Assembly (NCBI GenBank): GCA_964546045.1
Contig: CAZJIF010000001.1
Coordinates: forward strand, 1 to 59,665
Source: an uncultured Klebsiella sp.
Lineage (GTDB): Bacteria > Cyanobacteriota > Cyanobacteriia > PCC-6307 > Cyanobiaceae
Length of the DNA: 59,665 nt
Direction of reading: 5' to 3'
This document shows, in pieces, positions 12,846-42,259 of the stretch (the first letter of the stretch is position 1; each line of letters begins with the position of its first letter). The position numbers were made by a program, and so were the translations under genes. The notes beneath the pieces are model-generated. The model did no database searches. It was not told where the DNA came from and was given only the letters and a program-made list of their open reading frames with translations.

Positions 12846-13598
12846 TCAGGCTGTCGTCAGGAGATTGAGAATGGCCGAAATGACGGTTGAGTAAAAGAGA
12901 AAACTGATCACGGAGTGAACCAACACCATCCGCCGCATGCGCGCGTCTTCCAGGTTGACATCACTCATCGCGTAGGTCAGACCAACCGCAAAAGCAACGT
13001 AGAGAAAATCGGTAAAAATCGGCTCATCATTGCCCGCGAACACAAATCCCTGAGGATCGGGCCCGTCAGCAGCGGGGGCAGGATTAAGAGTGAAGTAATG
13101 CTTTGCATAATAAATCGCAAAGCCAATATGCAACTGCATCCACGTCGTGAACAAGGCCGCAAAATAGATAAAAATCCGCAACGACGTCGGCAGTGTGCTG
13201 ACTGAAGCATGCACGTCATGAATGCAGAGACTCAACAAGCCAATGCTCATGAACGCCAACAACACCGTGCGCTCAATCAACAGTTTGCGATTGGCCCGCC
13301 AGTGACCAAAAATCCGGCGGGTTGCCAGCGCTGAAAGCTTCTGCGACGACCGGGTGATGGCCAGCAGGTCAATCGCCATGGCCGCCAGAAAGCCGATCGA
13401 GGTGGCCTCATCCATGGGCAGCTCACGCAGCAACCCCACTGTCACGGCCGAACCGATCAACAGCCCGCGCAAGCCGCGGTAACCATCGTGAAAGCCGCGG
13501 GGGTGCTCGGGGGGTTCGACGATCAGGCGTCTGAGCTTGCGAAGGCCAAAACCCTTGCTCCCGCGGGGTCGAGCCGCCGTCGTCTCTGCCATGACCAC
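12846..13598 (-). CDS. DUF1345-family membrane protein
   Basis: Several TM helices. FAIYYAKHYF and DFLYVAFAVGLTYAMSDVNL...MVLVHSVISFLFYSTVISAILN resemble the conserved DUF1345 core as I recall it. Confidence 0.6.
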   Translation of the reverse strand: MVMAETTAARPRGSKGFGLRKLRRLIVEPPEHPRGFHDGYRGLRGLLIGSAVTVGLLRELPMDEATSIGFLAAMAIDLLAITRSSQKLSALATRRIFGHWRANRKLLIERTVLLAFMSIGLLSLCIHDVHASVSTLPTSLRIFIYFAALFTTWMQLHIGFAIYYAKHYFTLNPAPAADGPDPQGFVFAGNDEPIFTDFLYVAFAVGLTYAMSDVNLEDARMRRMVLVHSVISFLFYSTVISAILNLLTTA

Positions 13599-13737: not shown

Positions 13738-14412
13738 ATGGCCCAGGCGTCAGCCCCCAACCAGCGCTCGCCTCGCTGCCGCAGCGGGATCGCCCACCTG
13801 CATCGACTGGATGCTGGGCACCAGCGGTTTCTCAATGGGCAATCGGAACATCCCCACGCCACCAGCCAGCGACTCAAACATCTGGTCCAGGGACAGCATC
13901 CAATCGCCGCGATCCTGAGCTGCGCCGATTCGCGTGTGCCGGTCGAGCTGCTGTTTGACGCTGGCTTTGGCGATCTGTTTGTGGTCCGCAATGCCGGCAA
14001 CACCTGCACCAGCGCGACGATCGCCTCACTCGAATACGGAATCCAGGCGCTGGGGGTTCCGCTGGTGCTGGTGATGGGCCACGAAGGCTGTGGCGCCGTG
14101 ACCGCGGCCTGTCAACCCCACGGGACCCTGACACCCGAACTGCACGAGCTGGTGCACACGATTCGCCAAGGGCTCGACGAGACCACACCCAGCCTCGATC
14201 TGCCGGCCGCCTTTCGCCAGAACCCGATCCAGTCGGCCCGCCACCTGGTGCGCGGCAGTGCCCTGATCCGCGAGCGCATCGCCGCAGGCCAGCTGCTGGT
14301 CGAGGCGGCCTATTACACGCTGTGCCGCGGCGAGATCGAATGGTTGGGGGCGATTGACACCGATGAGGGGTTGCAACAGCCCCATCTGCACCGATCAGAG
14401 ACCCACGGCTGA
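13738..14412 (+). CDS. Beta-class carbonic anhydrase
   Basis: Zinc and active-site motifs CADSRVPVE, FVVRNAGN and HEGCGAV. Confidence 0.85.
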   Translation: MAQASAPNQRSPRCRSGIAHLHRLDAGHQRFLNGQSEHPHATSQRLKHLVQGQHPIAAILSCADSRVPVELLFDAGFGDLFVVRNAGNTCTSATIASLEYGIQALGVPLVLVMGHEGCGAVTAACQPHGTLTPELHELVHTIRQGLDETTPSLDLPAAFRQNPIQSARHLVRGSALIRERIAAGQLLVEAAYYTLCRGEIEWLGAIDTDEGLQQPHLHRSETHG

Positions 14413-15336
14413 CGGCTGGGGTGCTGATGTCGACTGGCGCGGCACCAGATGGTGCTGGTGCAGCGAGGCATTCCAGTCGATGCGTCGACTGAAGCGCAGA
14501 CCCAACGACCCACCAAGCTGTCGGCCGGTCTCGCTGCCGCCGGTGAGTCCGGCGGCCAGATTGGCCCCAAGCCGTTCGCTGAAGCTTTCGGCAGTGGTGT
14601 CGCGCACCATGCCAACAAACCAGCTGCGATGACCGATCGAACGGCGCAGCGCTTGAGGACCGGTCAGATCGCTGGCGAGCTGTCCGCCCACCATGGCGCC
14701 AACGGCCAGTCCCGCCAGGGCGCCCACCGGGCCGGCCAAGGCCGACCCCAGCACCATGCCGGTGCTGGAGCCCGCCTCCTCACCAACGCGGGTGCCGAGC
14801 CGACGCCAGGTCATCTGTCCCAGGGTCCGAGGCACTGTTTTGGCCTGACCGTCGGCCACGGCACTGCCGATGGTGGAACCGATGACAGCCCCCAGGACGG
14901 AGCCCAGACCACCCAGGACCAGGGCCAGGGTTGGCCCACCCAGGACCCCACCCAGGGCCGCGCCGCCGCCGCCGACCACCACCTGACCGATGGAGGCGCC
15001 GATCAGATTGCCGCCGAGTTGGCGGCTCAGATGCAGCCAGGGACCGGAGTCTGCGGAGGAGTCAACCGCGTCGCCGCCATCCCTGGCTGCACCCCCATCC
15101 AATTGGCAGCCGAGCGACGCCAGGGCCAGTTGCCAGCGCACCACTGGACAGCCGGGCCTCAGTTCGAGCACCAGTGAACGGGAGGTCTGGCGCCGCTGCC
15201 AGGCGCGCAACCAGGACTGCACCGAAAGCTGATCGCAAAGACGATCCAATGCGTCTGGATCGGCATCCTGGGGCCATTGCAACCGCACCCGGTCCGGCAG
15301 CGCATGGGCGATCCGCAGGTGGAGGCTTGCTGGCAT
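14395..15336 (-). CDS. HMA-like (no CxxC) N-terminal module fused to a glycine-zipper membrane domain
   Basis: ATG at 15336 (MPASLHLRIAHALPDRVRLQW...) gives 313 aa. The longer track ORF would run across the divergent gene. The C-terminal two-thirds are GxxxG-rich (GGGGAALGGVLGGPTLALVLGGLGSVLGAVIGSTIGS; GPVGALAGLAVGAMVGG). Confidence 0.65.
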   Translation of the reverse strand: MPASLHLRIAHALPDRVRLQWPQDADPDALDRLCDQLSVQSWLRAWQRRQTSRSLVLELRPGCPVVRWQLALASLGCQLDGGAARDGGDAVDSSADSGPWLHLSRQLGGNLIGASIGQVVVGGGGAALGGVLGGPTLALVLGGLGSVLGAVIGSTIGSAVADGQAKTVPRTLGQMTWRRLGTRVGEEAGSSTGMVLGSALAGPVGALAGLAVGAMVGGQLASDLTGPQALRRSIGHRSWFVGMVRDTTAESFSERLGANLAAGLTGGSETGRQLGGSLGLRFSRRIDWNASLHQHHLVPRQSTSAPQPSAVGL

Positions 15337-15420
15337 GGTTGCCGCGGCAGCAGACAACAGCTGATCTGGACGATAGGTTGGCTTGGCTTGTCTTCGCTTG
15401 CTCCCCCTCGCACCGATCCC

Positions 15421-15714
15421 ATGTTTGAGCTCGAAACCCTCATCGCCATGGGCGTCGGCGCCGCCCTGGTCGCCGTGGCACCTGTGGTGGCCTCCGTCAC
15501 GGGCCGGGAACACAAGCTGGCCACCTCGATCAGCGCCGCTGGTCGCAACCTGACCAAACAGGGTCTCAAGCTGGGAATCTGTCTGGCGGACAAGTCCTCC
15601 GGACTGGTGCGCAAGGTTGGCCACGGACTGTCAGAAGCCGGCGAAAGCCTGACGGACCTGGTGGCCGAAGCCCGTGCCGATCTTGAGCAGGCCAAAGCCG
15701 CCAAGAACGGCTGA
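15421..15714 (+). CDS. Small membrane protein, DUF5132-like (97 aa), copy 1
   Basis: ATG 15421 gives MFELETLIAMGVGAALVAVAPVV...GESLTDLVAEARADLEQA. Clear paralogue of 17324-17692. The pattern matches DUF5132 as I recall it (N-terminal TM helix plus C-terminal DLVAEA+.E helix). Confidence 0.7.
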   Translation: MFELETLIAMGVGAALVAVAPVVASVTGREHKLATSISAAGRNLTKQGLKLGICLADKSSGLVRKVGHGLSEAGESLTDLVAEARADLEQAKAAKNG

Positions 15715-15737
15715 CGCGACAGCCGCCGGCTCCAACT

Positions 15738-16244
15738 GTGACAACGCAAGCGACCTACCGGGTGAAGCACCGGCTTCCCCACCGGGTCCGGATCGATTTT
15801 GGCGAGCGACTGAGCCCGGAACAGCTGCGCAGTGTGATCTGGTTGCTGGAACACCACGACCCCGGGGCCGTGGTGCGACCAGCCGCGTCGGGCCATGGTC
15901 TGGTGATCTGCAGCACCAGCCCAGACCAACCGCTGATCGATCCGCTGCCGAGGCTGGACCAGGTGCTGTGCGAACCGGTCGCCCATCTGATCGAGCTGCC
16001 GCCCCAGGGCCTCCAGAAACTGATCCGCCAGTCACGCCAGGGCACCCTCAAGCTGCTCATCACCCTGGCGATCGCTGGCTGGGCGTTGCCGATCCTGCCG
16101 GGAACGCCTTTTTTCCTGTTGGCCTGGTGGATGGGTTGGCGACCGGAACCCAAAACCAACACCACCGGCAGCAACCCGGTGGATCAGGACAGGCCAATCT
16201 CCAACCAGGGAGAGTCGATCCGCGCTGAACGGCACGTCAGTTGA
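15738..16244 (+). CDS. HMA-like (no CxxC) module fused to a YbaN/DUF454-like membrane tail
   Basis: GTG start. N-terminus YRVKHRLPHRVRIDF. The C-terminal LLITLAIAGWALPILPGTPFFLLAWW matches the YbaN motif (LGVVLPVLPTTPFILLAAW). Confidence 0.65.
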   Translation: MTTQATYRVKHRLPHRVRIDFGERLSPEQLRSVIWLLEHHDPGAVVRPAASGHGLVICSTSPDQPLIDPLPRLDQVLCEPVAHLIELPPQGLQKLIRQSRQGTLKLLITLAIAGWALPILPGTPFFLLAWWMGWRPEPKTNTTGSNPVDQDRPISNQGESIRAERHVS

Positions 16245-17242
16245 GCGCGCTCAGGCGGCAAGGGCACGTCCAACTGCAAGCCACCGCTGCGGATCAGCAA
16301 CTGCTGATCCGCCTGGCGCACCCGCAGAGTCTCACGGACCAGACCCGGCAGCAACAACCGGCAGCGGCAGCCATCAGGCCCATCGATCCAACAACAGGTT
16401 TCAGCGCGCAAGGGTTGCTCCAGCCAGGACTCGAAGGCCAAAGGTGACGGCGTCGATCGGCCAAGCATGATCGGCAGCTCCCAGCGGGCGACAAGCTGAT
16501 CGCGAACCGAAGGTGCCAGATCGCCCTCCAGCCATAGACGGGGCTGGGCCAGGCCGCACAGGGCCAACGCCGCCACCCGACCATCCAGCAGCGGTAGATC
16601 CTCGGCATCGGCTGCCAGGGCCACCACCGCCTCGACCGCCTCAGGCACCTGCCGCAGGCGGCTCGCCAGGTCCTGCAGGCATGAACGCCAAACAGGCGAC
16701 AGCGCCAGGCTTTCAGCGTCTGGAAGGCGCAGGCGCAACACCAGCTCGAACTGGGCCAGGCGCTGACGGGTCTGGCTCCACCAGAGCAACAGTGGCGACC
16801 AGAGTCCCTCAAGCAGCTCGGGCCCCCGACGCAGCAGCTGCAGGATTTCGGTCGTCTGGGCCAGGGGAGGCATCACCACCACAAGGGCGATCCCTGCTTG
16901 CAGCGCGTGCCAGCCCTGGGCCAGATAAAGCGCACGCAGCACCGTGCCGAGACCTGGAATGGCGCCAAGGCAAGGCCGTTCGCCATCAACAGCGTCCAGC
17001 TCCAACAAGGCGAACCAGGGGGCCAGGGCCGGTAGCAGGTCCTGCCAGATGGTGTCGGCCCAGGCTTCAGGGTCGTAGCGCTGGAGTGGCTGGTGCGGCC
17101 TGGAGAGGACCAGGTCGCCGGCCAGATCCATCACCGCGGCCGCCTGACCCAGGCGGTCACACCGGTCCAGAACCGCCTGGGCCAGCCGGCGCCGCTGCGG
17201 CGCCGTGTCTGCCACCAAAAGCACCAACGGGGACGCCTCCAT
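16184..17242 (-). CDS. ArsA/Get3-like protein lacking the Walker A P-loop, with a C-terminal HSP20-like domain
   Basis: ATG 17242 (MEASPLVLLVADTAPQRRR...). IPGLGTVLRALYL....ALVVVMPPLAQTTEILQLL parallels the ArsA PG.dE / D.aPTGhTLrLL region. The C-terminus LRVRQADQQLLIRSGGLQLDVPLP...ARIDSPWLEIGL resembles the ArsA HSP20-like domain. No GKGGVGKT is present. Confidence 0.5.
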   Translation of the reverse strand: MEASPLVLLVADTAPQRRRLAQAVLDRCDRLGQAAAVMDLAGDLVLSRPHQPLQRYDPEAWADTIWQDLLPALAPWFALLELDAVDGERPCLGAIPGLGTVLRALYLAQGWHALQAGIALVVVMPPLAQTTEILQLLRRGPELLEGLWSPLLLWWSQTRQRLAQFELVLRLRLPDAESLALSPVWRSCLQDLASRLRQVPEAVEAVVALAADAEDLPLLDGRVAALALCGLAQPRLWLEGDLAPSVRDQLVARWELPIMLGRSTPSPLAFESWLEQPLRAETCCWIDGPDGCRCRLLLPGLVRETLRVRQADQQLLIRSGGLQLDVPLPPERAQLTCRSARIDSPWLEIGLS

Positions 17243-17280
17243 GGCCGGTCTCACAGCGTGGTTGGCAGCACGGATCTGCA

Positions 17281-17299
17281 GCAATCTGCCGTAGATTGC
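17281..17299. promoter_or_regulatory. Inverted repeat gcaatct-N5-agattgc in the divergent promoter region between the ArsA-like gene and the DUF5132/ATPase operon
   Basis: Read directly. 17281-17287 gcaatct is the reverse complement of 17293-17299 agattgc. Lies inside the 81-bp intergenic 17243-17323. Confidence 0.3.
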
Positions 17300-17323
17300 A
17301 AAGACTGCATCATCTGACGCTCG

Positions 17324-17692
17324 GTGTTTGAACTCGAAACCGTGCTGGCTTTCGGCGTGGGTGCCGGGCTGGTCGCACTGGCTCCAATGGTGCGTCGCCT
17401 GGGCAATCCCCAGCTCGGTGATTCGATGAACCACGTGGGCCGCTCGATGGCCAAAGGCGGTATCAAGGTCGGCGTCACCGTGGCCGGCGCTGCAGGCAAT
17501 GCCGCCCGCAGCGTGGCCCGCCATGCCGCAGAAGCTGCCGAGTCCCTGGGTGATCTGGTGGCCGAGGCCCGCACCGAACTGGAGACCGCCGTTGTGGACA
17601 CCCCCGTCGTGGACGCTCCGGCCGCAAGCAAGAAACCCGCCACCGGCCGCACCAAGAAGCAGGTGAGCGTCACGGATGTGACCGTCGAATAA
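17324..17692 (+). CDS. Small membrane protein, DUF5132-like (122 aa), copy 2
   Basis: GTG start. MFELETVLAFGVGAGLVALAPMV...AESLGDLVAEARTELETA is a paralogue of 15421-15714, with an extra Pro/Val/Lys-rich tail. Confidence 0.7.
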   Translation: MFELETVLAFGVGAGLVALAPMVRRLGNPQLGDSMNHVGRSMAKGGIKVGVTVAGAAGNAARSVARHAAEAAESLGDLVAEARTELETAVVDTPVVDAPAASKKPATGRTKKQVSVTDVTVE

Positions 17693-17758
17693 GCATCACG
17701 CTCTGTCAGCTGACGGCGCAACAGTTCACGTTTTTCTCTCACCCCGCCCTTCTGGTCC

Positions 17759-20290
17759 GTGCTTGCTGAAGAGTCGCCCCGGCTGCGCCGCCCCGGACGC
17801 GTTCATACCTCGACAGAGCGTCCCCGGCTTGTCCCTGTTCCCCTGAGCCTGGCGAGCAACGGTGACACAGGGCATCAACAGCCTCAGCTGATCTGCGGTT
17901 TGGTGCATGCCAGTGGCACCAGAATCCGGCTGCGGATCGATGCCGAACCCCTTGCCCAGCAGCGACTGCACGCGGCGCTGAAAGCCAAGCCCGAGATTGC
18001 CCAGGTCCGGATCAACAGCCTGGCCTGCAGCTGCGTGATCCAGTTCAGGGATCGTCAGGCCACCCCTGCGACGGACGCGGCCCTGAACGCGTGGCTCGGG
18101 CAGCTGCCGATTGCGATCGATGGCACTGAAGCCAGCACCGCAAAGCCCACCGGCACCGGGCCTGACGAGGAGGAGGACGCATTCGTTCCCTCACGCATCA
18201 TCCTGCCGGTCAGCTCCCTGGCTCTGGCCCTGCTGGCCGGCCCCCTGGCCCTGCCCCCGCTGGCCGTTGCTGGATTCATCCTGGTCTCGGCTCACCTGAG
18301 CTTCAAACGGGCCTGGGCCGGTCTGAAGCAGGAACGCAAGATCAACGTCGACTTTCTCGACGCCCTCGCCGTCACCCTGCACAGCCTGGAAGGGTTCCTG
18401 GTCGGCCCCGCGCTGATGATCAGCATGATCGAGGGTGGCGAAGCAGTGCGCGATGCCACCCAGCGCATCGCCCACTCGGCCAACACCGACCTGCTGGCCA
18501 GCCTGCAGGCCGATGTGCGCCGGTTGCGCAGCGACGGCAGCGACGAGATCGTTCCCAGCACCGACCTGGTGGCCGGCGACCGAGTTCTGTTCTTTCCGGG
18601 CGACAGCATCCCCATCGACGGCGTGATCGACAGCGGCGAAGGCAGCTTCGACGTGGTCAAGCTCACCGGCGAATCGGTGCCCCGCCATGCAGTGGCCGGC
18701 GATGAGGTGTTGGCTGGATTCATCCTGCTCGAAGGGTCCCTGGTGGTCGAGATCCGCGCGGTGGGCGATGACACCCGGATCGGCCAGATCACGGCGATGA
18801 TCGAATCAGCCCCCGTCTACGACACCCGGGTTGGCAATTTTGCCGCCAAGATCGCCAACCGATTCGTCATGCCGACCCTGCTGCTTGCAGGCGTCTCACT
18901 GTTGCTCAGCGCAGGCAATGTGGCCCAGGCCGCATCCCTGCTGATGTTCGACCTGGGAACCGGCCTGCGCGTCTCGGTGCCCACGGCGATCATGGCTGCC
19001 CTGACCCGCGCCGGCTCTCAGGGTCTGTTGATCCGCAGCGGCCGAGCCCTCGAGCAACTGGTCGACATCGATGTCGTGGTCTTCGACAAGACCGGCACCC
19101 TGACCCAGGGCCATCCCTCGGTGGTGCATGTCGATGTGCTCCACAGCGAACTGTCGCGCGAACGGCTCACCTGGCTGGCCACCACGGCAGAACAGGGCCT
19201 GAACCATCCAGTGGCAACGGCGATCGTCGATTACGCCGAGGTCCAGGGGCTGCAGCCCGGGACCTGCGACAGCTGGGATTACCGCATCGGCAAGGGCGTC
19301 AGCGCGGTGATCGATGGTCACCGGGTCCTGATCGGCAACGCCAAGATCCTGCGCGACGAATCGCTGGACGTTCCCGAGCTTCACCCCGAACAGGCCCTGC
19401 GCTCGTCGACACCGATCTATCTGGCGGTCGACGATGTGGTGGCGGCGGTCTTTTATGCCGCCGACCAACTGCGGCCGGACAGCCGTGATCTGGTTGCCGA
19501 ACTGCACCGACGGGGCATTCAGGCCCACATGCTGACCGGCGATGTGGCCAGTGTCGCCAATGCCGTGGCCGCCGAGCTTGGCCTTCAGCCCGATGAGGTT
19601 CATGCCGAGGCACTGCCGGATCAGAAGGCCGAACTCGTCAAACAACTCAGCGAGCAGGGGCACAAGGTGGCGTTTGTCGGCGACGGCATCAACGATTCGG
19701 CGGCACTGGCCTATGCCGATGTGTCGATCTCATTTGCCTCCGGCAGTGATCTGGCGCGGGAGACCGCCGACATCGTGCTCACCAACGACAAGGTCTCAGG
19801 CCTGATCACCGCCCAGGATCTGGCCAAGCGCACCTTTGCCCTGGTGAAGCAGAACATCAGCATTGTGGGTGTCCCGAACCTGTCGGCCCTGGTGATCGGC
19901 ACGTTTGTGCCGGTCAGTCCGATTGCGGCTGTGCTGCTGAACAACGGCTCCTGCCTCGTGGCAGCCGCCAATGCGCTGAGAACGCTGGGCTTCACCCCCA
20001 GCCCACTGCCCCAAGCCGATGCGGCAGCCTCCGGTTCCGAGGCCGTGGTTGCCGTTGACGTGGTGGCCAACACACCTGCGCAGAGCGAAGCAATCCGCAG
20101 GGAACAGCCGGCAGAACCGCTCAACCTGACGACCCAGGCCCTTGCCAAGCGCCTGGGCACCTCCCATCAGACCGTCAGCGCCCGCCGCCGCCGTGGTGAT
20201 CTGGCGGACTGGAGCCGCAGCCTCGATCCCGAAGGTCGGTCCTGGACCCAGGAATCCGCCAGCGGCCGCTATGTGAGCATCAGCGCCTGA
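17759..20290 (+). CDS. P-type ATPase of P1B (heavy-metal) architecture with an HMA-like N-terminus and no CxxC or CPx motifs
   Basis: Catalytic motifs are present: TGES (KLTGESVP), DKTGT (19085-19099), NHP (SEHP-type), MLTGD and GDGINDSAAL. The start is uncertain because no in-frame ATG occurs before codon 220; GTG 17759 or TTG/GTG near 17899-17904 are candidates. Confidence 0.8.
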   Translation: MLAEESPRLRRPGRVHTSTERPRLVPVPLSLASNGDTGHQQPQLICGLVHASGTRIRLRIDAEPLAQQRLHAALKAKPEIAQVRINSLACSCVIQFRDRQATPATDAALNAWLGQLPIAIDGTEASTAKPTGTGPDEEEDAFVPSRIILPVSSLALALLAGPLALPPLAVAGFILVSAHLSFKRAWAGLKQERKINVDFLDALAVTLHSLEGFLVGPALMISMIEGGEAVRDATQRIAHSANTDLLASLQADVRRLRSDGSDEIVPSTDLVAGDRVLFFPGDSIPIDGVIDSGEGSFDVVKLTGESVPRHAVAGDEVLAGFILLEGSLVVEIRAVGDDTRIGQITAMIESAPVYDTRVGNFAAKIANRFVMPTLLLAGVSLLLSAGNVAQAASLLMFDLGTGLRVSVPTAIMAALTRAGSQGLLIRSGRALEQLVDIDVVVFDKTGTLTQGHPSVVHVDVLHSELSRERLTWLATTAEQGLNHPVATAIVDYAEVQGLQPGTCDSWDYRIGKGVSAVIDGHRVLIGNAKILRDESLDVPELHPEQALRSSTPIYLAVDDVVAAVFYAADQLRPDSRDLVAELHRRGIQAHMLTGDVASVANAVAAELGLQPDEVHAEALPDQKAELVKQLSEQGHKVAFVGDGINDSAALAYADVSISFASGSDLARETADIVLTNDKVSGLITAQDLAKRTFALVKQNISIVGVPNLSALVIGTFVPVSPIAAVLLNNGSCLVAAANALRTLGFTPSPLPQADAAASGSEAVVAVDVVANTPAQSEAIRREQPAEPLNLTTQALAKRLGTSHQTVSARRRRGDLADWSRSLDPEGRSWTQESASGRYVSISA

Positions 20291-20295
20291 AGCCG

Positions 20296-20841
20296 ATGCA
20301 CGCGCTGGACTGCCTGCAAACGGTCCACAGCAGCCCGGGCCGACTGCGTTACCGACTCCGTGCAGCCAAGCCAATCCCCTGGCCCGAACTGCAGCGGGAG
20401 CTGGATCAACGGTTGACCGGACTGCCCATCTACTGGCGTCTCACCCCGGGGGCCTGTTCAGTGCTGTTGGTGTACCGCCCACCACACGACGACCTGAGCG
20501 ATGGACCCGACGTCGCCGCAGCCATCCTGCGCCAGGCCAGCCAACGGTTGATCGCCGCCCTGGAGGCATGCGGCGTCACCCCCGCCGCACCCGAGCTGAT
20601 CGAGATCCGAACCCAGCAGCACAACAACCGGCTAGCAGCATTGCAAGCCTTGGGATCAGGCCTGATCAATGGACTCTCGGCAGGGGTGAGTCTGCTGCTG
20701 GTGGCCCTGGCCAGCCTGCTCATCCTGCTGGGCAGCCTGGGGTTGATGGTTCCCTGGGGCCCTGGCAGCCTGCTGCTGCTGCTGGCCTATGGATTGGTGG
20801 AGCTGGCCCTGTGGGTGCGCCAACCGTTCGTCAACGCCTGA
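20296..20841 (+). CDS. HMA-like (no CxxC) module fused to a two-TM YbaN/DUF454-like tail
   Basis: ATG lies 5 nt after the ATPase stop. N-terminus VHSSPGRLRYRLR...PGACSVLLVY. The C-terminal LLGSLGLMVPWGPGSLLLLLAYGL parallels the tail of the 15738-16244 protein. Confidence 0.65.
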   Translation: MHALDCLQTVHSSPGRLRYRLRAAKPIPWPELQRELDQRLTGLPIYWRLTPGACSVLLVYRPPHDDLSDGPDVAAAILRQASQRLIAALEACGVTPAAPELIEIRTQQHNNRLAALQALGSGLINGLSAGVSLLLVALASLLILLGSLGLMVPWGPGSLLLLLAYGLVELALWVRQPFVNA

Positions 20842-22339
20842 CGACAGGCTGAACCAAAGTCGCAGTCACATCGCGCAAGGGGATCGACGGATGCCCCCAG
20901 CCCTCGGTGGGCAGAGCCCCATTCGAAGCAAACCAGGCCAGGATCAGGGCATCGAGGGGCGATTCGATCGCAGCAGTCGCAGGGGCACGCAGGTTGAAGT
21001 GATCGCCACCCTCAGCCAGCACCAGCCGATGGTTGCCGATGCCGGTGTTGAGCGCCATGCGCCGCAGCGGCTCGATCGCTTCGGGCCCCGCCGGCACCAC
21101 CCAGTCCCGGGAGCCGCTGACCACGAGCGCGGAGGCATGCATGGCTCCGGCCGCACCGGGAGCGAACAACAGGCGCATCGGCGGGCTGACGGCCACAACC
21201 GCCGTGACACGCCGGTCAGCGAGGGCAGCCTGGTCGGCAGCACCAAGAAAACTGCACTGCAGCACCCAGCTGAGGTTGTGGGCAGGATCCTTGAGGTTGT
21301 TGCACTCCTCACGCAACAGCCTCGAACTGGGGGTGACACCCGCGAGCTGCAGCACCGTCGTGGCACCCCAGGAGTGGCCGGCCGCCAGCACCCGGGTGGT
21401 ATCAACCCTGGTGCTGAGGCCAAGGCGACCATCAGCCGCCGCGTCGATCAGGGCTGACACGTCCTTGGGACGCTGCTTCAGCTCCTCGGGACCGGGCGGC
21501 GCTGTCTTACCGGCCAGCATGGCGTGTTGCTGCGCCGCATCGCTGCCCGGATGCTCGGGCAGGACCACCGTGTAGCCATGACTGGCCAGATGGTGGGCCC
21601 AGGACTCGAAATTCGCAGGGCTGTCCCACAACCCGTGGGAAACCACCACCAACCGGCCGTTGCCTCCCGACACCGGTTCGATCACCACACCCCGCAAACG
21701 CACAGGCCGATGACTGACCGCCAGGTCAAAGCTGCGACGACGGTGGGCCACGGGGCCACGCGTGCTGAAACGGCCCGATTGCGCCGCGGGCTGAGCCGCC
21801 AACAGCGGAACGGCTGCCGCCTGCTGACGCTGCAGGCGCGTCAGGGCTGCTAGCAGGCGATTGAGATCCACGGTGGCCGTTCTGCCGGGCACAGCCGCCA
21901 GCACATCCGCCAGGCTGAGGGTCCCGTCGTTGGCGGCGGCCTGTCGCAGGGCCAGTTCCAGTTCTTCTCTGCCGGTGGTGGGCGGAGCGGAGAGGCCGTC
22001 GACATCTCCCAGAGCTGCGATCAGCAACAACACCTGATCCAGCAGGGAACTGCCCTGGGCCACCCGTGCCAGCGAACCCAGCTGCAACGGCAGGGCTGAA
22101 TCCAGCAACGTGGCCAGCTGCCGGCCGATCGCGCCATTGGTGGCGCGGTTCAGCTCGGCCAGGTCGCTGTTTCCAGCAGCCAGCGATCGGGGATCGCGCA
22201 GATCGGAGACCTTCAGCGTGAAGGCCTCCGGGATCATCGGCAGCTTGATCCGGATCGTCTCGAGGGCGCGGGCAGGAGCCGCCGTCAGCGTCGCCAACAC
22301 CAGGCCTGCCATCAGGCGAAAGGCGCGCTGCACGTGCAT
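20831..22339 (-). CDS. Secreted alpha/beta hydrolase with a DUF1400-like N-terminal domain
   Basis: ATG 22339 gives a signal peptide (MHVQRAFRLMAGLVLATLTAAPARA). ETIRIKLPMIPEAFTLKVSDL is DUF1400-like. Nucleophile elbow GHSWG. Confidence 0.65.
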   Translation of the reverse strand: MHVQRAFRLMAGLVLATLTAAPARALETIRIKLPMIPEAFTLKVSDLRDPRSLAAGNSDLAELNRATNGAIGRQLATLLDSALPLQLGSLARVAQGSSLLDQVLLLIAALGDVDGLSAPPTTGREELELALRQAAANDGTLSLADVLAAVPGRTATVDLNRLLAALTRLQRQQAAAVPLLAAQPAAQSGRFSTRGPVAHRRRSFDLAVSHRPVRLRGVVIEPVSGGNGRLVVVSHGLWDSPANFESWAHHLASHGYTVVLPEHPGSDAAQQHAMLAGKTAPPGPEELKQRPKDVSALIDAAADGRLGLSTRVDTTRVLAAGHSWGATTVLQLAGVTPSSRLLREECNNLKDPAHNLSWVLQCSFLGAADQAALADRRVTAVVAVSPPMRLLFAPGAAGAMHASALVVSGSRDWVVPAGPEAIEPLRRMALNTGIGNHRLVLAEGGDHFNLRAPATAAIESPLDALILAWFASNGALPTEGWGHPSIPLRDVTATLVQPVVRR

Positions 22340-22356
22340 GGGAAATCTGAGCCTGC

Positions 22357-22376
22357 AGGCGCATTCTGACCTTGGC
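22357..22376. promoter_or_regulatory. Inverted repeat tgacctt-N6-aaggtca in the divergent region between the hydrolase and pseudo-ATPase genes
   Basis: Read directly. 22357-22363 tgacctt is the reverse complement of 22370-22376 aaggtca. Confidence 0.25.
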
Positions 22377-22443
22377 CCGAAGGTCACGTCGCCAGAGCAG
22401 CCACCGGAGGCTTCTGCCATACCGGAACGCCGTCATCACTGCG

Positions 22444-24648
22444 ATGATGACCCTTGTCATCTCCGCTTCATCGATGGCTTCGCCTGCAGCAGTTGCAGAG
22501 GCCGCCACTGGAATGACCTGGACAGTCGCCAGTGATCTGCCGGGTCGTCTCAGAGTGCGCAGTGAGGACCTGGTCGCCTCGCCCCTGCTGCGCCATCACT
22601 GCAAGCTGGTGCTGACCAGCTGTCACTGGCTGGTTCAGTTCAGGATCAACCCCTTGGCGGGCAGCCTCTGCGTCGGCTACCCCCAGCACCGCCGCCATGA
22701 ACTGCTCGCTCTGCTCGAGCAGGCCTTGCGCCTGAACACCGCGGACGATGGACTGGCGCCACTGCCACCAGCGCCATTCTCAGGAGCGCGGGTCAGGCGG
22801 ACCCTGGTGCATGGAGCAGCCTGCCTGGCTTTGATCAGCTTTGAAAGCGTCCTGGCCGTGCCGACGGTGGTGATGGTTGGCCTCAGCTCGGTGCTGCTGC
22901 TGCCGCTGGCTCGTGAGGTGCTGCACCAACTGCGGCGGCGCAAGCTCACCGTCGAAAGTCTGGAACTCAGCTTTTCTGGTCTTCTGGTCAGTCAGGGACT
23001 CACCGGAGAGGCCCTGCTGGATCTGGCGATCGGTGATGCGGTCGAGGTCGCCCAGAGCGCCGTTGAGCGCGACGATCTCGACCTCAATGCCGACCATGTG
23101 CTGCAACGTCTCGGCGAGCGGGTCAGCCTCAAGTCGGTTGACGACAGCGGGCAGACCCTGTCTGTCTTGCTCAGGGATGTGGACCTGGGCCTCACCATCC
23201 GCATTGAGCGCCGCGAGCACTGTTTGCTCTCAGCACGGCTGCTCAACGGTGAACTGATCGTCGTCAACCGGCTGGTTGATGGCGACTGGCGGCCCCAACG
23301 GCTGCGCCAGGGGGATCTGCTCGAATCTGGTGCCCTGGTGATCTTCGGTGAGGCAGAAGCCAGAATCGAGCAATGCATCCATACGGATCCTGCCTATAGC
23401 CTTCTGCGGGACCATTCAGCCAAGGCAAAGCAGGACCCCACGGGTGCCGAGCTTTGGGTCCACCGGTACAAACGGGTGATGCCGCCCCTGCTGCTGAGCC
23501 TGGGCGGTGTGATGTTGTCAGTCGGGTCGACCGACGCAGCCCTGGCCGCCTTTCAGTTCAACCCACTGAGTGACTGGGAGGAGCAGAAACTGGCATCCCA
23601 ATTCACAACCATTGCCGATCTGAACCTTCACAAGCTGAGGATTCGCAAACCTGCTTCGATCGAGGACATCGGCAAGATCCGCCACCTGGTGATCAGCCGC
23701 AGCTGCCTGGACCGGATCGGGGGCATCCAGGTGCGCGAACAGATCCACGACCCCGCCCGGACCGCAACCGGTTCCCTGGTCCAACTTCTGGCAGGCATTC
23801 AACACTGGATCTGCGGCAACGACGGCGCCGCTCTCTGGTCAACACAATTGCAGAAGGTGGCTGATCCTGTTGTTGTTGAACACGTCGAGATCCGGCAACT
23901 TCACGAAGGGTGGACCATCACCGCAGCTGATGGCCGCTGCTGGCAACTGCGGCAACAGGCCATGGACCCAGGCAAACGCTGCCACACCCATCTCAATCCC
24001 CTCGAAGTCTGGCAGGACGAGACACTGTTGGGGATTGTGGACCTGCTCAGTGAACCCGACCACCATTGGCAGGCCACCTGCCAAAGCCTGCGAGAGCTGG
24101 GCATTGAGATTCATCTGATCACCGCGGAAGAGGTGGAACGGCTGGATGAGATTGCCGGGCCTCTGGGCATTGACCAAGATCACTGCTATGGGTCATTCAC
24201 AGCCCTGGACCGGCTGGAGTTGGTGCAGCGGCTTCAGCAGAGTGGTCAGGGAGTGGGCTACATCGGCTATGTGTTGCACGATCTGCCGGCCCTGGCCCAG
24301 GCAGACGTCTCCCTTGGTTTGGACGTCGATGATGACAGCCGTTATTTGTCGACCATCTGCGACCTGTCGCTCGGCTCAGACGCACTCTGGTTGCCGCGCC
24401 TGATCAAGATCAGCCGCAGCATGCAACGGGCCTCCGACCAGAATTTCAGCCTGCTGGCCGCCTCCCAGGTGTTGGCCTCCTTGGCTACAGCTGCCGGTTG
24501 GATCGTTCCCCTGCAGACCGTGTTGCTGAGCGATGTCCCGCTGCTACTCGCTGAACTCAACAACCTACTGGCGCTGCAGGCTCCTAAACAGCTGGCGGCT
24601 GAGCAGCCAGCAACCGTCGGTGCAAAGCCGGCAAGATCAGGCTCTTGA
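22444..24648 (+). CDS. Catalytically degenerate P-type-ATPase paralogue (pseudo-ATPase) with an HMA-like N-terminus
   Basis: Collinear with the 17759-20290 protein, but DKTGT is SRSCL (23695-23709), TGD is TAE, GDGIND is GYVLHD (24265-24282), and TGES is absent. Start candidates are ATG 22444, 22474 or 22513; the track start is TTG 22372. Confidence 0.65.
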   Translation: MMTLVISASSMASPAAVAEAATGMTWTVASDLPGRLRVRSEDLVASPLLRHHCKLVLTSCHWLVQFRINPLAGSLCVGYPQHRRHELLALLEQALRLNTADDGLAPLPPAPFSGARVRRTLVHGAACLALISFESVLAVPTVVMVGLSSVLLLPLAREVLHQLRRRKLTVESLELSFSGLLVSQGLTGEALLDLAIGDAVEVAQSAVERDDLDLNADHVLQRLGERVSLKSVDDSGQTLSVLLRDVDLGLTIRIERREHCLLSARLLNGELIVVNRLVDGDWRPQRLRQGDLLESGALVIFGEAEARIEQCIHTDPAYSLLRDHSAKAKQDPTGAELWVHRYKRVMPPLLLSLGGVMLSVGSTDAALAAFQFNPLSDWEEQKLASQFTTIADLNLHKLRIRKPASIEDIGKIRHLVISRSCLDRIGGIQVREQIHDPARTATGSLVQLLAGIQHWICGNDGAALWSTQLQKVADPVVVEHVEIRQLHEGWTITAADGRCWQLRQQAMDPGKRCHTHLNPLEVWQDETLLGIVDLLSEPDHHWQATCQSLRELGIEIHLITAEEVERLDEIAGPLGIDQDHCYGSFTALDRLELVQRLQQSGQGVGYIGYVLHDLPALAQADVSLGLDVDDDSRYLSTICDLSLGSDALWLPRLIKISRSMQRASDQNFSLLAASQVLASLATAAGWIVPLQTVLLSDVPLLLAELNNLLALQAPKQLAAEQPATVGAKPARSGS

Positions 24649-26544: not shown

Positions 26545-26552
26545 GGCGTTGT

Positions 26553-42229: not shown

Positions 42230-42259
42230 GGCGTTAGGTGAGCGCGCGAGAGAACTGGG

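What the first reader, a model, noticed from the sequence alone, without database searches (positions are those of the whole stretch)
14395..24648. Ten-kb membrane locus built on five copies of a Cys-loop-less HMA-like 'PGRxRxR' module
Five ORFs within 10 kb open with the same 65-75 aa module. A (from 15336, minus strand): HLRIAHALPDRVRLQW...SRSLVLEL. B (from 15738): YRVKHRLPHRVRIDF...GHGLVICS. C (ATPase, about 17891-18107): GLVHASGTRIRLRI...VRINSLACSCVIQF. D (from 20296): VHSSPGRLRYRL...PGACSVLLVY. E (about 22513-22732): VASDLPGRLRVRS...FRINPLAGSLCVGY. The spacing and hydrophobic periodicity fit a ferredoxin-like heavy-metal-associated fold. However, the GMxCxxC metal loop expected after strand 1 is absent in all five copies; only a single semi-conserved Cys sits in the last strand of B-E. 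The module is fused to five different partners: a Gly-zipper membrane protein, two YbaN/DUF454-like tails, an apparently active P1B-like ATPase and a catalytically dead ATPase paralogue. Two DUF5132-like small TM proteins and a Walker-A-less ArsA/Get3-like protein are interleaved. The genes form three back-to-back divergent units (intergenic 15337-15420, 17243-17323, 22340-22443). I know of no experimentally assigned function for this combination. It reads as a dedicated membrane machine in which a shared HMA-like domain, probably not metal-binding, acts as a common docking or regulatory handle. Databases may already catalogue the module (I recall an 'HMA2' label), but I cannot verify that here.
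Basis: partly seen in the sequence, partly recalled or inferred. Interest (0 to 1): 0.85.

Follow-up and report, generated by a model that had tools for sequence, protein, structure and literature searches.

The report
Calcyanin carbonate-biomineralization gene cluster
This stretch is the calcyanin (ccyA) locus of a Cyanobium-like picocyanobacterium: five neighbouring membrane proteins share the already described CoBaHMA (Pfam HMA_2) domain, which gives a compact list of candidate genes for how cyanobacteria build calcium-carbonate granules inside the cell.

Summary
Five genes within 10 kb open with one homologous module of about 80 aa. A profile built from the five copies alone recovers 589 protein clusters, and 82 of the 99 best scanned are Pfam HMA_2 (PF19991). 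That family is published as CoBaHMA: an HMA-superfamily domain with an extra strand β0, a conserved His, a basic RxR patch and no CxxC.

Gene A has all the published features of a W-type calcyanin (ccyA), the marker gene for intracellular amorphous calcium carbonate (iACC). No published calcyanin sequence could be aligned to it.

In the ATPase the CPC motif is replaced by D-[LF]-G. The α/β-hydrolase is a lineage-specific insertion.

A ccyA, DUF5132, CoBaHMA-DUF454 neighbourhood is already published for Microcystis. The domain and the marker gene are therefore known. The ATPase/pseudo-ATPase pair and the Get3d-like gene next to ccyA appear in none of the papers I could read.

Best reading: an iACC and Ca/carbonate-handling gene cluster in which CoBaHMA is a shared membrane-targeting or regulatory handle. 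This function is inferred, not shown.

The parts
12846..13598 (-). DUF1345 membrane protein, a conserved flank of the cluster
   Evidence: Pfam DUF1345 E 1.4e-31. Syntenic in nearly all related loci and also next to the C-type ATPase on the Gloeothece PCC 7822 plasmid.
13738..14412 (+). β-class carbonic anhydrase, convergent with ccyA and overlapping it by 18 nt
   Evidence: Pfam Pro_CA E 6.8e-33. CxDxR and HxxC zinc-site motifs are readable in the translation. It lies next to ccyA in every locus with enough flank except L023.
14395..15336 (-). Gene A: W-type calcyanin (ccyA), 313 aa
   Evidence: CoBaHMA N-terminus followed by three GlyZip repeats. Weak PdsO match on GlyZip2, as published for calcyanins.
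15097..15336 (-). CoBaHMA module of A (aa 1-80)
   Evidence: AF2 pLDDT >90 with β0βαββαβ topology. H11, R16, R18 and R53 are invariant in 15 homologues. Foldseek matches to HMA domains have probability 0.94-0.99.
14455..15042 (-). (GlyZip)3 domain of A (aa 99-294)
   Evidence: Gly autocorrelation peaks at lags 4, 8 and 12. Central Gly-Pro at residues 134 and 202. W239 is invariant and E250 nearly so in GlyZip3. GlyZip1 is predicted as a helical hairpin.
15421..15714 (+). s1: DUF5132 small protein with an N-terminal TM helix
   Evidence: Pfam DUF5132 E 5e-5, just below the cut-off. TM helix at residues 8-26. 81-97% identical in close relatives and 57-58% in the distant loci.
15738..16244 (+). 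Gene B: CoBaHMA (15738-15980) with a DUF454/YbaN-like TM hairpin
   Evidence: Pfam DUF454 E 2.8e-6, below the cut-off. Module links to A at 87% and to C at 89%. Same architecture as the published Microcystis protein at position -3 from ccyA.
16184..17242 (-). Get3d-like protein with a C-terminal α-crystallin/HSP20 domain and no Walker A
   Evidence: AF2 pLDDT 85, pTM 0.86. Foldseek NosGet3d 8egk E 4e-14, AtGet3d 8elf 1e-11, then Get3/ArsA. ArsA_HSP20 E 9e-5. After β1 the sequence is 'ADTAPQRRR' where the P-loop should be. The gene is absent from the distant loci L010-L012.
17324..17692 (+). s2: second DUF5132-type small TM protein, a paralogue of s1
   Evidence: 45% identical to s1. Conserved directly upstream of the ATPase in all loci.
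17759..20290 (+). Gene C: CoBaHMA (about 17891-18118) fused to a P1B-like P-type ATPase with a non-canonical TM4
   Evidence: NCBIfam TIGR01525 482 bits; best PDB match CopA 3rfu, 1e-69. TGES, DKTGT, HP, TGD and GDGIND are all kept. CPC is replaced by D-[LF]-G within a conserved 'D[LF]GTG' stretch; TM5 has 'PN' and TM6 has 'NNGS', also in Gloeothece and most Nostoc orthologues.
20296..20841 (+). Gene D: CoBaHMA (20296-20535) with a DUF454-like C-terminal TM hairpin
   Evidence: Module links to C at 97%, E 6e-10. Tail links to the B tail at 80%, E 1.4e-5, sharing the LPxxPG..LLA motif. The start lies 5 nt after the stop of C.
20831..22339 (-). Secreted DUF1400 α/β-hydrolase: a lineage-specific insertion, not part of the conserved cluster
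   Evidence: Pfam Abhydrolase_1 and DUF1400. Present only in L001, L016 and L017. Absent between D and E in L004-L010, L022, L025 and L026.
22513..24648 (+). Gene E: CoBaHMA (22513-22740) fused to a conserved pseudo-P-type ATPase
   Evidence: DKTGT becomes ISRSC, TGES becomes DGDW, TGD becomes TAE and GDGIND becomes GYVLHD, all kept in orthologues at 60% identity. Residual P1B similarity is TIGR01525 E 1.5e-15. HMA_2 E 0.001.
24584..25984 (-). NhaP-type Na+/H+ exchanger, a conserved flank
   Evidence: Pfam Na_H_Exchanger E 4.9e-31. Syntenic in L004-L009, L016 and L026.
26026..27359 (-). Conserved 172-aa protein of unknown family and an SDR oxidoreductase, conserved flank
   Evidence: No Pfam hit for the 172-aa protein; adh_short_C2 E 6e-64 for the SDR. 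Syntenic. An SDR also follows the HMA2 protein in the Gloeothece cluster.

Best explanation
The locus is the ccyA (calcyanin) gene cluster of a Cyanobium/Synechococcus-type picocyanobacterium. It most likely encodes a membrane system for handling Ca2+ and inorganic carbon, linked to intracellular amorphous calcium carbonate (iACC) granules.

Shown here:
- Five proteins carry a CoBaHMA/HMA_2 domain: an HMA-type ferredoxin fold with an extra β0 strand, a conserved His, an invariant RxR basic patch and no metal-binding cysteines.
- One of the five has the published features of calcyanin.
- The gene set is syntenic across relatives down to 42% ccyA identity.

Inferred:
1. The CoBaHMA basic surface acts as a common handle. 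It would bring calcyanin, the two DUF454-tailed proteins, the ATPase and its dead paralogue to the same anionic membrane or granule surface, or regulate them there.
2. ATPase C has an Asp in place of the first CPC cysteine in TM4 and Asn/Ser ligands in TM5 and TM6. It would therefore pump a hard cation, with Ca2+ the best guess, rather than Cu or Zn.
3. The catalytically dead paralogue E would act as a scaffold or regulatory partner.
4. The adjacent β-carbonic anhydrase and the NhaP exchanger would supply HCO3-/CO3 2- and control pH.
5. In this subclade, the P-loop-less Get3d-like protein would be an ATP-independent holdase or insertion factor for the C-terminally anchored B and D proteins, or a lipid binder.
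For: Module identity:
- hhalign links all five modules.
- The five-copy profile gives 589 family hits, and 82 of 99 scanned are HMA_2.
- AF2 gives the β0βαββαβ topology with pLDDT >90, and Foldseek matches HMA domains.
- RxR is invariant, and His is present in A-D.

Calcyanin features:
- Three GlyZip repeats with Gly-X3-Gly periodicity, a central Gly-Pro in repeats 1 and 2, and conserved W and E in repeat 3.
- A PdsO partial hit on GlyZip2. All of these are listed as calcyanin traits in PMC8890360.
- W-type calcyanins are published for the picocyanobacteria RS9917 (iACC observed), CB0101 and Lanier.

Synteny:
- The same order is found in L002-L009, L016-L022, L025 and L026, and the core also in L010-L012 at 42-44% ccyA identity.

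Links to Ca and carbonate:
- Pro_CA abuts ccyA in nearly all loci.
- L011 and L012 add two Na_Ca_ex genes.
- The window has a Na_Ca_ex gene 6 kb away.
- C-type ATPases in Nostoc flagelliforme lie beside cax.
- The literature reports ccyA co-localised with cax, BicA, cation ATPases and a carbonic anhydrase.
- In Microcystis, ccyA lies beside DUF5132, CoBaHMA-DUF454, DUF5132 and cax. The paper reports that the DUF454 gene is co-expressed with ccyA.

ATPase pair: motifs are intact in C and lost in E, and CPC is replaced by D-[LF]-G across the clade.

Get3d-like fold without a P-loop.
Against: - There is no evidence that this organism forms iACC.
- No published calcyanin sequence could be obtained for direct alignment, so membership rests on described features.
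- One published picocyanobacterial calcyanin (Lanier) is called atypical and was never tested for iACC.
- The third GlyZip here has no central Gly-Pro.
- By sequence, C scores above NCBIfam's cut-off for 'heavy metal translocating P-type ATPase'. Its ion is unknown, and Ca2+ is a guess from ligand chemistry and neighbours.
- Overexpressing ccyA in S. elongatus raised cellular Ca but did not produce iACC.
- A related set (C-type ATPase, DUF1345, DUF5132, HMA2 pseudo-ATPase, SDR) sits on a Gloeothece PCC 7822 plasmid with no recognisable calcyanin.
- L023 carries ccyA without the CoBaHMA genes nearby.
- Whether CoBaHMA binds lipid, protein or mineral has not been tested.
Confidence: 0.6

Rival explanations
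1. A general cation and pH homeostasis membrane module, for example Ca2+, Mn2+ or Mg2+ export under alkaline or high-Ca conditions. It would use CoBaHMA-regulated transporters and have no mechanistic tie to mineral formation. Calcyanin would be a frequent neighbour, not a working partner.
For: - The ATPase, DUF5132, HMA2 pseudo-ATPase, DUF1345 and SDR set exists without a recognisable calcyanin on the Gloeothece PCC 7822 plasmid.
- C-type ATPases in Nostoc flagelliforme lie next to cax and a Mn efflux pump.
- L023 has ccyA apart from the cluster.
- NhaP and Na_Ca_ex neighbours fit ion homeostasis.
Against: - ccyA, β-CA, DUF5132 and CoBaHMA-DUF454 stay adjacent from 98% down to 42% ccyA identity.
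- A similar trio flanks ccyA in the distant Microcystis, and the paper reports the DUF454 gene as co-expressed with ccyA.
- Calcyanin itself carries the same CoBaHMA domain as the transporters.
Confidence: 0.22
2. A system for membrane or envelope biogenesis and lipid remodelling. CoBaHMA domains would bind anionic lipids, the Get3d-like protein would carry lipid or tail-anchored clients in its hydrophobic chamber, and the SDR, DUF1345 and DUF5132 proteins would modify or organise a specialised membrane. Ion transport would be secondary.
For: - The CoBaHMA family is reported to be fused to lipid-metabolism and transport proteins and is hypothesised to bind anionic lipids.
- A YegS-type lipid kinase and an SDR lie in the Gloeothece cluster.
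- Get3d crystals contain a phospholipid-like density in the hydrophobic chamber.
- B and D are C-terminally anchored.
Against: - No lipid enzyme lies in the conserved core here.
- The Get3d-like gene is missing from the distant versions of the cluster.
- The largest conserved genes are a P-type ATPase pair, a carbonic anhydrase and an antiporter.
Confidence: 0.12
3. An ordinary heavy-metal (Cu/Zn/Cd) efflux operon with divergent metal-binding domains.
For: C matches TIGR01525 'heavy metal translocating P-type ATPase' above the cut-off, and CopA/ZntA structures are its best PDB relatives. RefSeq annotates the orthologues that way.
Against: - None of the five modules has CxxC, and their cysteines are not conserved.
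- The TM4 CPC motif is replaced by D-[LF]-G across the clade.
- There is no metal-sensor or chaperone gene. The neighbours are calcyanin, carbonic anhydrase and Na+/H+ and Ca2+ antiporters.
Confidence: 0.03

Closest known systems
W-type (CoBaHMA) calcyanin, ccyA, of Synechococcus sp. RS9917 / CB0101 (Benzerara et al. 2022, PMC8890360)
   Same: An N-terminal CoBaHMA domain with a β0 His and basic residues in β1 and β2. A C-terminal triple GlyZip domain with Gly-Pro centres, conserved W and E in GlyZip3, and a PdsO-like partial match. Similar length (313 aa against 302-303 aa). Picocyanobacterial host.
   Different: No direct sequence comparison was possible. GlyZip3 here has no central Gly-Pro. 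iACC formation by this organism is unknown. The paper does not describe this gene neighbourhood.
ccyA neighbourhood of Microcystis aeruginosa PCC 7806 (bioRxiv 10.1101/2024.07.07.602159)
   Same: ccyA is flanked by a DUF5132 gene, a CoBaHMA-DUF454 gene, a second DUF5132 gene and a further CoBaHMA protein, and a Ca2+ antiporter lies nearby. The authors likewise propose that these proteins work with calcyanin.
   Different: Microcystis calcyanin has a Z-type N-terminus, not CoBaHMA. No CoBaHMA ATPase, pseudo-ATPase, Get3d-like gene or adjacent β-CA is reported there. Here cax is not adjacent; a Na_Ca_ex gene lies 6 kb away.
CoBaHMA domain family = Pfam HMA_2 PF19991 (Gaschignard et al. 2024, Proteins 92:776; not readable here, cited)
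   Same: Ferredoxin-like HMA fold, extra β0 strand, conserved basic patch, no CxxC, and fusions to transporters and membrane proteins.
   Different: The window copies are divergent: they are sub-threshold or undetected by the Pfam model. The E copy lacks the β0 His. Five copies in one conserved cluster is not described in any text I could read.
P1B-type heavy-metal ATPases (CopA 3rfu, ZntA 4umv)
   Same: Overall sequence and domain order; the A, P and N domain motifs including the P1B 'HP' locus; an N-terminal HMA-superfamily domain.
   Different: TM4 CPC is replaced by D-[LF]-G. TM5 and TM6 carry Asn/Ser instead of the Cu or Zn ligand sets. The N-terminal domain has no metal-binding cysteines. 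It is paired with a dead paralogue.
Get3d (NosGet3d All4481 8egk, AtGet3d 8elf; PMC10248533)
   Same: Get3/ArsA fold with a C-terminal α-crystallin domain. Cyanobacterial. TM-score about 0.65.
   Different: Get3d keeps a well-conserved deviant Walker A motif and hydrolyses ATP. Here there is no glycine-rich loop or lysine, so nucleotide binding is unlikely. About 15% identity.

Membership tests
CoBaHMA / Pfam HMA_2 | Ferredoxin-like βαββαβ HMA core with an additional N-terminal strand β0 | tested here: met
   AF2 of A gives E5-12, E16-20, H27-37, E43-49, E54-59, H65-74, E77-80 with pLDDT >90. Foldseek matches HMA domains with probability 0.94-0.99 and the KipI-like YbgJK with 0.97. Only A was modelled; B-E are inferred by profile alignment.
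CoBaHMA / Pfam HMA_2 | Conserved basic residues in β1 and β2, and a His in β0 | tested here: met
   RxR is invariant in all 29 module sequences and in 99 family representatives. The β2 Arg is present in all five. His is present in A-D and replaced by Ala/Ser in the E lineage.
CoBaHMA / Pfam HMA_2 | Significant match to the family profile | tested here: inconclusive
   The window copies score below Pfam's cut-off (C E 0.004, E E 0.001; A, B and D no hit). However, 9 of 29 orthologous modules hit HMA_2 (best 2.3e-10), and 82 of the 99 top hits of the five-copy profile are HMA_2.
CoBaHMA / Pfam HMA_2 | Absence of the CxxC metal site of classical HMA | tested here: met
   The β1-α1 loop has no Cys in any copy. 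Other cysteines are not conserved across orthologues.
Calcyanin (ccyA) | C-terminal domain of three GlyZip repeats of about 50 aa with Gly-X3-Gly periodicity | tested here: met
   Repeats at about residues 105-162, 177-226 and 233-284. Gly autocorrelation is 0.29, 0.27 and 0.15 at lags 4, 8 and 12.
Calcyanin (ccyA) | Central conserved Gly-Pro in each GlyZip | tested here: inconclusive
   GP at residues 134-135 (mostly conserved; two of 15 homologues differ) and at 202-203 (invariant). GlyZip3 has no central GP.
Calcyanin (ccyA) | Trp and Glu strictly conserved in GlyZip3 | tested here: met
   W239 is invariant and E250 is conserved in at least 90% of 15 homologues. Equivalence to the published positions could not be checked without published sequences.
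Calcyanin (ccyA) | Match to the authors' GlyZip HMM, or direct homology to a published calcyanin | not testable with these tools
   Neither the HMM nor the sequences are held. The Fischerella plasmid AP018299 is not in the collections. tblastn against plasmids finds nothing, probably because of the low-complexity filter.
Calcyanin (ccyA) | The host forms intracellular amorphous CaCO3 | not testable with these tools
   This needs microscopy or FTIR of the organism.
P1B-type ATPase (gene C) | P-type catalytic motifs TGES, DKTGT, TGD and GDGxND, plus the P1B HP motif | tested here: met
   All are present in C and its orthologues. TIGR01525 scores 482 bits against a cut-off of 346.
P1B-type ATPase (gene C) | TM4 (C/S/T)P(C/H)-type metal-binding motif | tested here: not met
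   Aligned to CopA 'CPC', C has 'DLG'. D-[LF]-G holds across the clade, within a conserved 'D[LF]GTG' stretch in all but one Nostoc paralogue.
P-type ATPase (gene E) | Phosphorylated Asp in DKTGT and the other catalytic motifs | tested here: not met
   The motifs read ISRSC, DGDW, TAE and GYVLHD, conserved as such in orthologues. E is a pseudo-enzyme.
Get3d | Get3/ArsA fold with a C-terminal α-crystallin domain | tested here: met
   Foldseek 8egk E 4e-14, TM 0.66. ArsA_HSP20 E 9e-5. A profile search matches the All4481 C-terminal domain.
Get3d | Conserved deviant Walker A (P-loop) | tested here: not met
   Between β1 (6-11) and helix 14-30 the sequence is A-D-T-A-P-Q-R-R. T13, Q16, R17 and R18 are conserved, and there is no Gly or Lys. 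Get3d normally keeps the P-loop.
DUF5132 | Match to PF17195 | tested here: inconclusive
   s1 has E 5e-5 and 23.7 bits against a cut-off of 25. s2 has no hit but is 45% identical to s1. The Gloeothece orthologue is annotated as DUF5132.
DUF454 / YbaN | Match to PF04304 | tested here: inconclusive
   B matches only profile positions 11-45, with E 2.8e-6 and 27.8 bits against a cut-off of 35.1. D has no hit but its tail aligns to the B tail. Only the first helical hairpin of YbaN is present, as described for the Microcystis protein.

The most novel reading that the evidence does not exclude
The cluster is a self-contained 'carbonate-granule island', the iACC counterpart of a magnetosome island. 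CoBaHMA would be the address tag that gathers a Ca2+-pumping P1B-derived ATPase, its pseudo-ATPase partner, calcyanin and two tail-anchored proteins on the granule envelope. A P-loop-less Get3d paralogue would serve as their dedicated insertion chaperone, and a dedicated carbonic anhydrase and a Na+/H+ exchanger would set the carbonate chemistry. If so, this would be a first near-complete parts list for bacterial intracellular CaCO3 formation, and the first P1B-lineage pump for an alkaline-earth cation.
Probability: 0.3. Interest if true: 0.75.

Novelty: new variant of a known kind. Interest (0 to 1): 0.5.

Why it matters
How bacteria make intracellular amorphous calcium carbonate is unresolved. 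Only ccyA is an accepted marker, its biochemical role is unknown, and no deletion mutants have been obtained (PMC8890360). This locus shows that, in picocyanobacteria, ccyA sits in a conserved block of about 14 kb. The block also holds an apparently active but non-canonical P-type ATPase, a conserved dead paralogue, a carbonic anhydrase, a Na+/H+ exchanger and four further proteins with calcyanin's own N-terminal domain. That turns 'what works with calcyanin?' into a short, testable gene list. It also suggests that CoBaHMA is the physical link between the components. Separately, a P1B-lineage ATPase clade with Asp in place of the first CPC cysteine, and a Get3d paralogue without a P-loop, are each of interest to their own sections.

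Tried and rejected
- Direct Pfam scans of the five window N-termini gave only two sub-threshold HMA_2 hits. Homology had to be shown through ortholog profiles and an exhaustive profile search.
- Word-indexed protein searches with A and with an alignment of A reached only relatives at 42% identity or more. They did not recover named calcyanins.
- The genome and metagenome locus scans also returned only this clade.
- tblastn of A and of s2 against plasmids found nothing.
- The Fischerella NIES-4106 plasmid that carries a published ccyA is not in the collections.
- The supplements hold accession numbers but no sequences.
- Sequence search of the Get3d-like protein against PDB was marginal (E 0.1-0.4). 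Only the predicted structure settled it.
- The profile of the modules found no solved structure by sequence.
- Foldseek with the full-length A model gave weak E-values because two thirds of the model is low-confidence.
- I tested whether the C-terminal tail of ATPase C and the conserved 172-aa protein share a domain. They do not (hhalign 1%).
- Rfam found nothing in 12-28 kb.
- Promoter and terminator consensus scans were at chance level.
- I considered the heavy-metal efflux reading and rejected it, because the CxxC and CPC motifs are missing.

Full report
**1. What is there**

The region 12.8-27.4 kb of this 65% G+C window encodes the following genes, in order:
- a DUF1345 membrane protein (12846-13598, -);
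- a β-carbonic anhydrase (13738-14412, +);
- gene A (14395-15336, -);
- a DUF5132 small TM protein, s1 (15421-15714, +);
- gene B (15738-16244, +);
- an 'ArsA-like' protein (16184-17242, -);
- a second DUF5132-type protein, s2 (17324-17692, +);
- the P-type ATPase C (17759-20290, +);
- gene D (20296-20841, +);
- a secreted DUF1400 α/β-hydrolase (20831-22339, -);
- gene E (22513-24648, +);
- an NhaP-type Na+/H+ exchanger (24584-25984, -);
- a 172-aa protein with no family match;
- an SDR.

**2. Are the five N-termini one module?**

Taken singly, the evidence is thin. Pfam HMA_2 is hit only by C (E 0.004) and E (E 0.001), both below the cut-off, and not by A, B or D. Raw pairwise scores give a connected but weak graph, with z of 5.2 for A-B, 5.0 for C-D, 4.5 for C-E and 3.4 for A-C.

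With orthologues from related loci the picture becomes clear. In hhalign the C module is a hub: A-C 92%, B-C 89%, C-D 97%, C-E 90%, and also A-B 87%. All alignments are in the same register.

A profile built from the five window copies alone was run exhaustively against 1.84 billion representatives. It finds 589 proteins at E<=1e-3 and 38 at E<=1e-10. Of the 99 best scanned, 82 carry Pfam HMA_2 (best 2.6e-24), 17 carry classical HMA and 11 are P-type ATPases. The consensus there is 'VHxxPGRxRxR', with both arginines invariant.

AlphaFold2 of A, using 15 homologues, gives β0(5-12)-β1-α1-β2-β3-α2-β4 with pLDDT above 90 for residues 1-80. Foldseek then matches HMA domains: Ccc2a 1fvq, ATP7B 6a71, CopA 1kqk, NmerA 2kt2 and ZntA 1mwy, with probability 0.94-0.99, target TM about 0.6 and rmsd about 2.8 Å. 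It also matches the KipI-like YbgJK.

There is no CxxC motif.

Five copies of a domain this rare within 10 kb cannot be chance.

**3. The module has a name**

It is the CoBaHMA domain ('Conserved Basic residues HMA'). It was first described as the N-terminus of W-type calcyanins (PMC8890360) and then as a family by Gaschignard et al. 2024, where it is equated with Pfam HMA_2 PF19991. I could not read that second paper. Its published hallmarks are the extra β0 strand with a conserved His, basic residues in β1 and β2, and the absence of the metal-binding cysteines. All are met here, except that the E lineage lacks the His.

**4. Gene A has the features of calcyanin**

Behind its CoBaHMA domain, A has three Gly-zipper repeats, at about residues 105-162, 177-226 and 233-284. 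They show Gly-X3-Gly periodicity: Gly autocorrelation is 0.29, 0.27 and 0.15 at lags 4, 8 and 12. Repeats 1 and 2 have a central Gly-Pro. Repeat 3 has an invariant Trp and a nearly invariant Glu. Repeat 2 gives a weak match to the PdsO model.

Each of these is a stated calcyanin feature. The PdsO hit is even listed for the RS9917 protein in the authors' table. As in the published models, only GlyZip1 folds confidently, as a helical hairpin.

W-type calcyanins are on record for three picocyanobacteria:
- Synechococcus sp. RS9917, 303 aa, with iACC seen by EM;
- CB0101, 302 aa;
- Lanier, 264 aa, described as atypical and not tested for iACC.

Limits: I could not obtain any published calcyanin sequence or the authors' HMM, so membership rests on features. 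The third repeat here also lacks a central Gly-Pro.

**5. Synteny**

Twenty-seven further loci were collected, about twenty of which carry enough of this region to compare. The order DUF1345, CA, ccyA, s1, B, Get3d-like, s2, C, D, E, NhaP, 172-aa, SDR recurs in Cyanobium/Synechococcaceae-type MAGs and metagenome contigs with ccyA identity from 99% down to 56%.

At 42-44% identity the core persists: CA, ccyA, s1, B, s2, C, D, E. These loci differ in three ways:
- they have no Get3d-like gene;
- L010 has an extra 111-aa HMA_2 monodomain protein;
- L011 and L012 have two Na_Ca_ex genes beside the CA.

The α/β-hydrolase lies between D and E only in the closest relatives (L001, L016, L017).

One contig, L023, has ccyA between the 172-aa protein and DUF1345 without the CoBaHMA genes.

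Outside this clade two related loci were found:
- A Gloeothece verrucosa PCC 7822 plasmid carries a C-type ATPase (44% identical), DUF1345, DUF5132, an 'HMA2 domain-containing protein' that resembles a truncated E, an SDR, a GlyZip-like hypothetical protein, a YegS lipid kinase and DUF1269, with no recognisable calcyanin.
- A Nostoc flagelliforme plasmid has two such ATPases beside cax and Na_Ca_ex fragments.

The published Microcystis PCC 7806 neighbourhood is ccyA with DUF5132 at -1, a CoBaHMA protein at -2, CoBaHMA-DUF454 at -3, DUF5132 at -4 and cax at +1. The paper reports the DUF454 gene as co-expressed with ccyA. This is plainly the same core.

**6. The partners**

*ATPase C.* C is P1B-like: TIGR01525 scores 482 bits, and CopA 3rfu matches at 1e-69. 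TGES, DKTGT, HP, TGD and GDGIND are all intact. Where CopA has CPC, C has D-L-G. D-[LF]-G holds in all orthologues, within a conserved 'D[LF]GTG' stretch in all but one Nostoc paralogue. 'PN' in TM5 and 'NNGS' in TM6 are also conserved. This oxygen-rich ligand set argues against soft metals. Ca2+ is my inference from chemistry and neighbourhood, not a result.

*Pseudo-ATPase E.* E keeps the CoBaHMA domain, the TM segments and the overall P-type layout. It has ISRSC for DKTGT, DGDW for TGES, TAE for TGD and GYVLHD for GDGIND. These replacements are themselves conserved at 60% identity. E is therefore a maintained pseudo-enzyme.

*B and D.* Both end in a TM hairpin with the YbaN-type 'LPxxPGxPxxLLA' motif. 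B matches Pfam DUF454 at E 3e-6, and the D tail matches the B tail in hhalign at 80%.

*The 'ArsA-like' protein.* It has no sequence-detectable NTPase domain; only its C-terminal HSP20-like domain is detected. A confident AF2 model (pLDDT 85, pTM 0.86) matches NosGet3d (8egk, E 4e-14, TM 0.66) and AtGet3d, followed by Get3, TRC40 and ArsA. Get3d proteins keep a well-conserved P-loop, hydrolyse ATP and bind tail-anchored proteins (PMC10248533). Here the loop reads A-D-T-A-P-Q-R-R and is conserved as such.

**7. Mechanism (inferred)**

The best-supported reading is an iACC-associated system for handling Ca and carbonate.
- Calcyanin and four other proteins would be brought to, or regulated at, the same anionic surface by their shared CoBaHMA basic patch.
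- C would pump a hard cation, with E as a non-catalytic partner.
- The abutting β-CA and NhaP would manage HCO3-/CO3 2- and protons.
- The Get3d-like protein, found in this subclade only, would chaperone the tail-anchored B and D proteins or bind lipid without ATP.

The evidence against is set out under Best explanation. The main points are that there is no phenotype for this organism, the ion is unknown, the ATPase core occurs without calcyanin in Gloeothece, and ccyA occurs without the core in L023.

The rival readings are generic cation/pH homeostasis, envelope or lipid biogenesis, and heavy-metal efflux. I rate them at 0.22, 0.12 and 0.03.

**8. Novelty and score**

The domain (2022 and 2024), the calcyanin family (2022) and a ccyA, DUF5132, CoBaHMA-DUF454 neighbourhood (2024-25 preprint) are all published.

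The following appear in none of the texts I could search:
- the extended conserved cluster in picocyanobacteria, with five CoBaHMA proteins;
- the D-for-CPC ATPase clade with its conserved pseudo-ATPase partner;
- the P-loop-less Get3d paralogue;
- the fixed β-CA, DUF1345, NhaP and SDR flanks.

I cannot exclude that Gaschignard et al. 2024 mention some of this. I rate the finding as a new variant of a known kind, with interest 0.5. It gives a useful, testable parts list for an open problem, not a new kind of system.

Noticed in passing
window 20120-20287 (+), C-terminal tail of ATPase C: A conserved tail of about 56 aa, 'LTTQALAKRLGTSHQTVSARRRRGDLADWSRSLDPEG...', follows the last TM helix. It gives weak HTH_17 and AsnC-HTH hits (E 0.003). 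It is kept in picocyanobacterial orthologues and absent from the Gloeothece and Nostoc ATPases. A helix-turn-helix-like tail on a P-type ATPase is unusual.
   Followed up: partly
window 20831-22339 (-): A secreted DUF1400 α/β-hydrolase is inserted between D and E only in the closest relatives (L001, L016, L017). In all more distant loci D and E are adjacent.
   Followed up: yes
window 30540-32132 (+): A Na_Ca_ex (CaCA-family) antiporter gene lies about 6 kb beyond the cluster (Pfam E 1.5e-23). In L011 and L012 two such genes sit directly beside the carbonic anhydrase next to ccyA.
   Followed up: partly
window 40000-50000: This stretch has lower G+C (0.55-0.58, against about 0.65 elsewhere). 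It holds two GMC oxidoreductases, a GH63/MGH1-like hydrolase and a COX1/COX2/COX3 oxidase operon. It may be an acquired island.
   Followed up: no
L023 3197-5555: One metagenome contig has ccyA (58% identical) between the 172-aa protein and DUF1345, with neither the carbonic anhydrase nor any CoBaHMA, DUF5132 or ATPase gene. ZnuA and SelO genes lie nearby. The linkage is therefore not absolute.
   Followed up: partly
L010 1234-1569 (-): The distant version of the cluster has an extra 111-aa HMA_2 monodomain protein (E 2e-8) and no Get3d-like gene.
   Followed up: partly
L013 (Gloeothece verrucosa PCC 7822 plasmid NC_014533, 84374-104449): A related cluster without a recognisable calcyanin: C-type ATPase, DUF1345, DUF5132, a 522-aa 'HMA2 domain-containing protein' (a truncated E-like pseudo-ATPase), SDR, a 200-aa GlyZip-like hypothetical protein, a YegS-family lipid kinase and DUF1269. 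An unannotated, possibly frameshifted DUF5132-like ORF lies upstream of the ATPase (8008-8267).
   Followed up: partly
window 14395-14412, 16184-16244, 24584-24648: Three pairs of convergent genes overlap at their 3' ends: CA/ccyA by 18 nt, B/Get3d-like by 61 nt and E/NhaP by 65 nt. This could allow antisense or transcriptional interference.
   Followed up: no
one search hit list (P0104-P0251): Most of the best CoBaHMA family hits are 250-450 aa proteins with two or three tandem modules. This architecture does not occur in this window.
   Followed up: no
window 26026-26544 (-): The 172-aa protein has no Pfam or NCBIfam match and is strictly syntenic with the cluster (50-75% identical in relatives). 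Its N-terminus, 'LSRLESELGISRVDLLLLIRRLGL', looks like a helix-turn-helix, so it may be a regulator. It shows no detectable similarity to the ATPase tail.
   Followed up: partly
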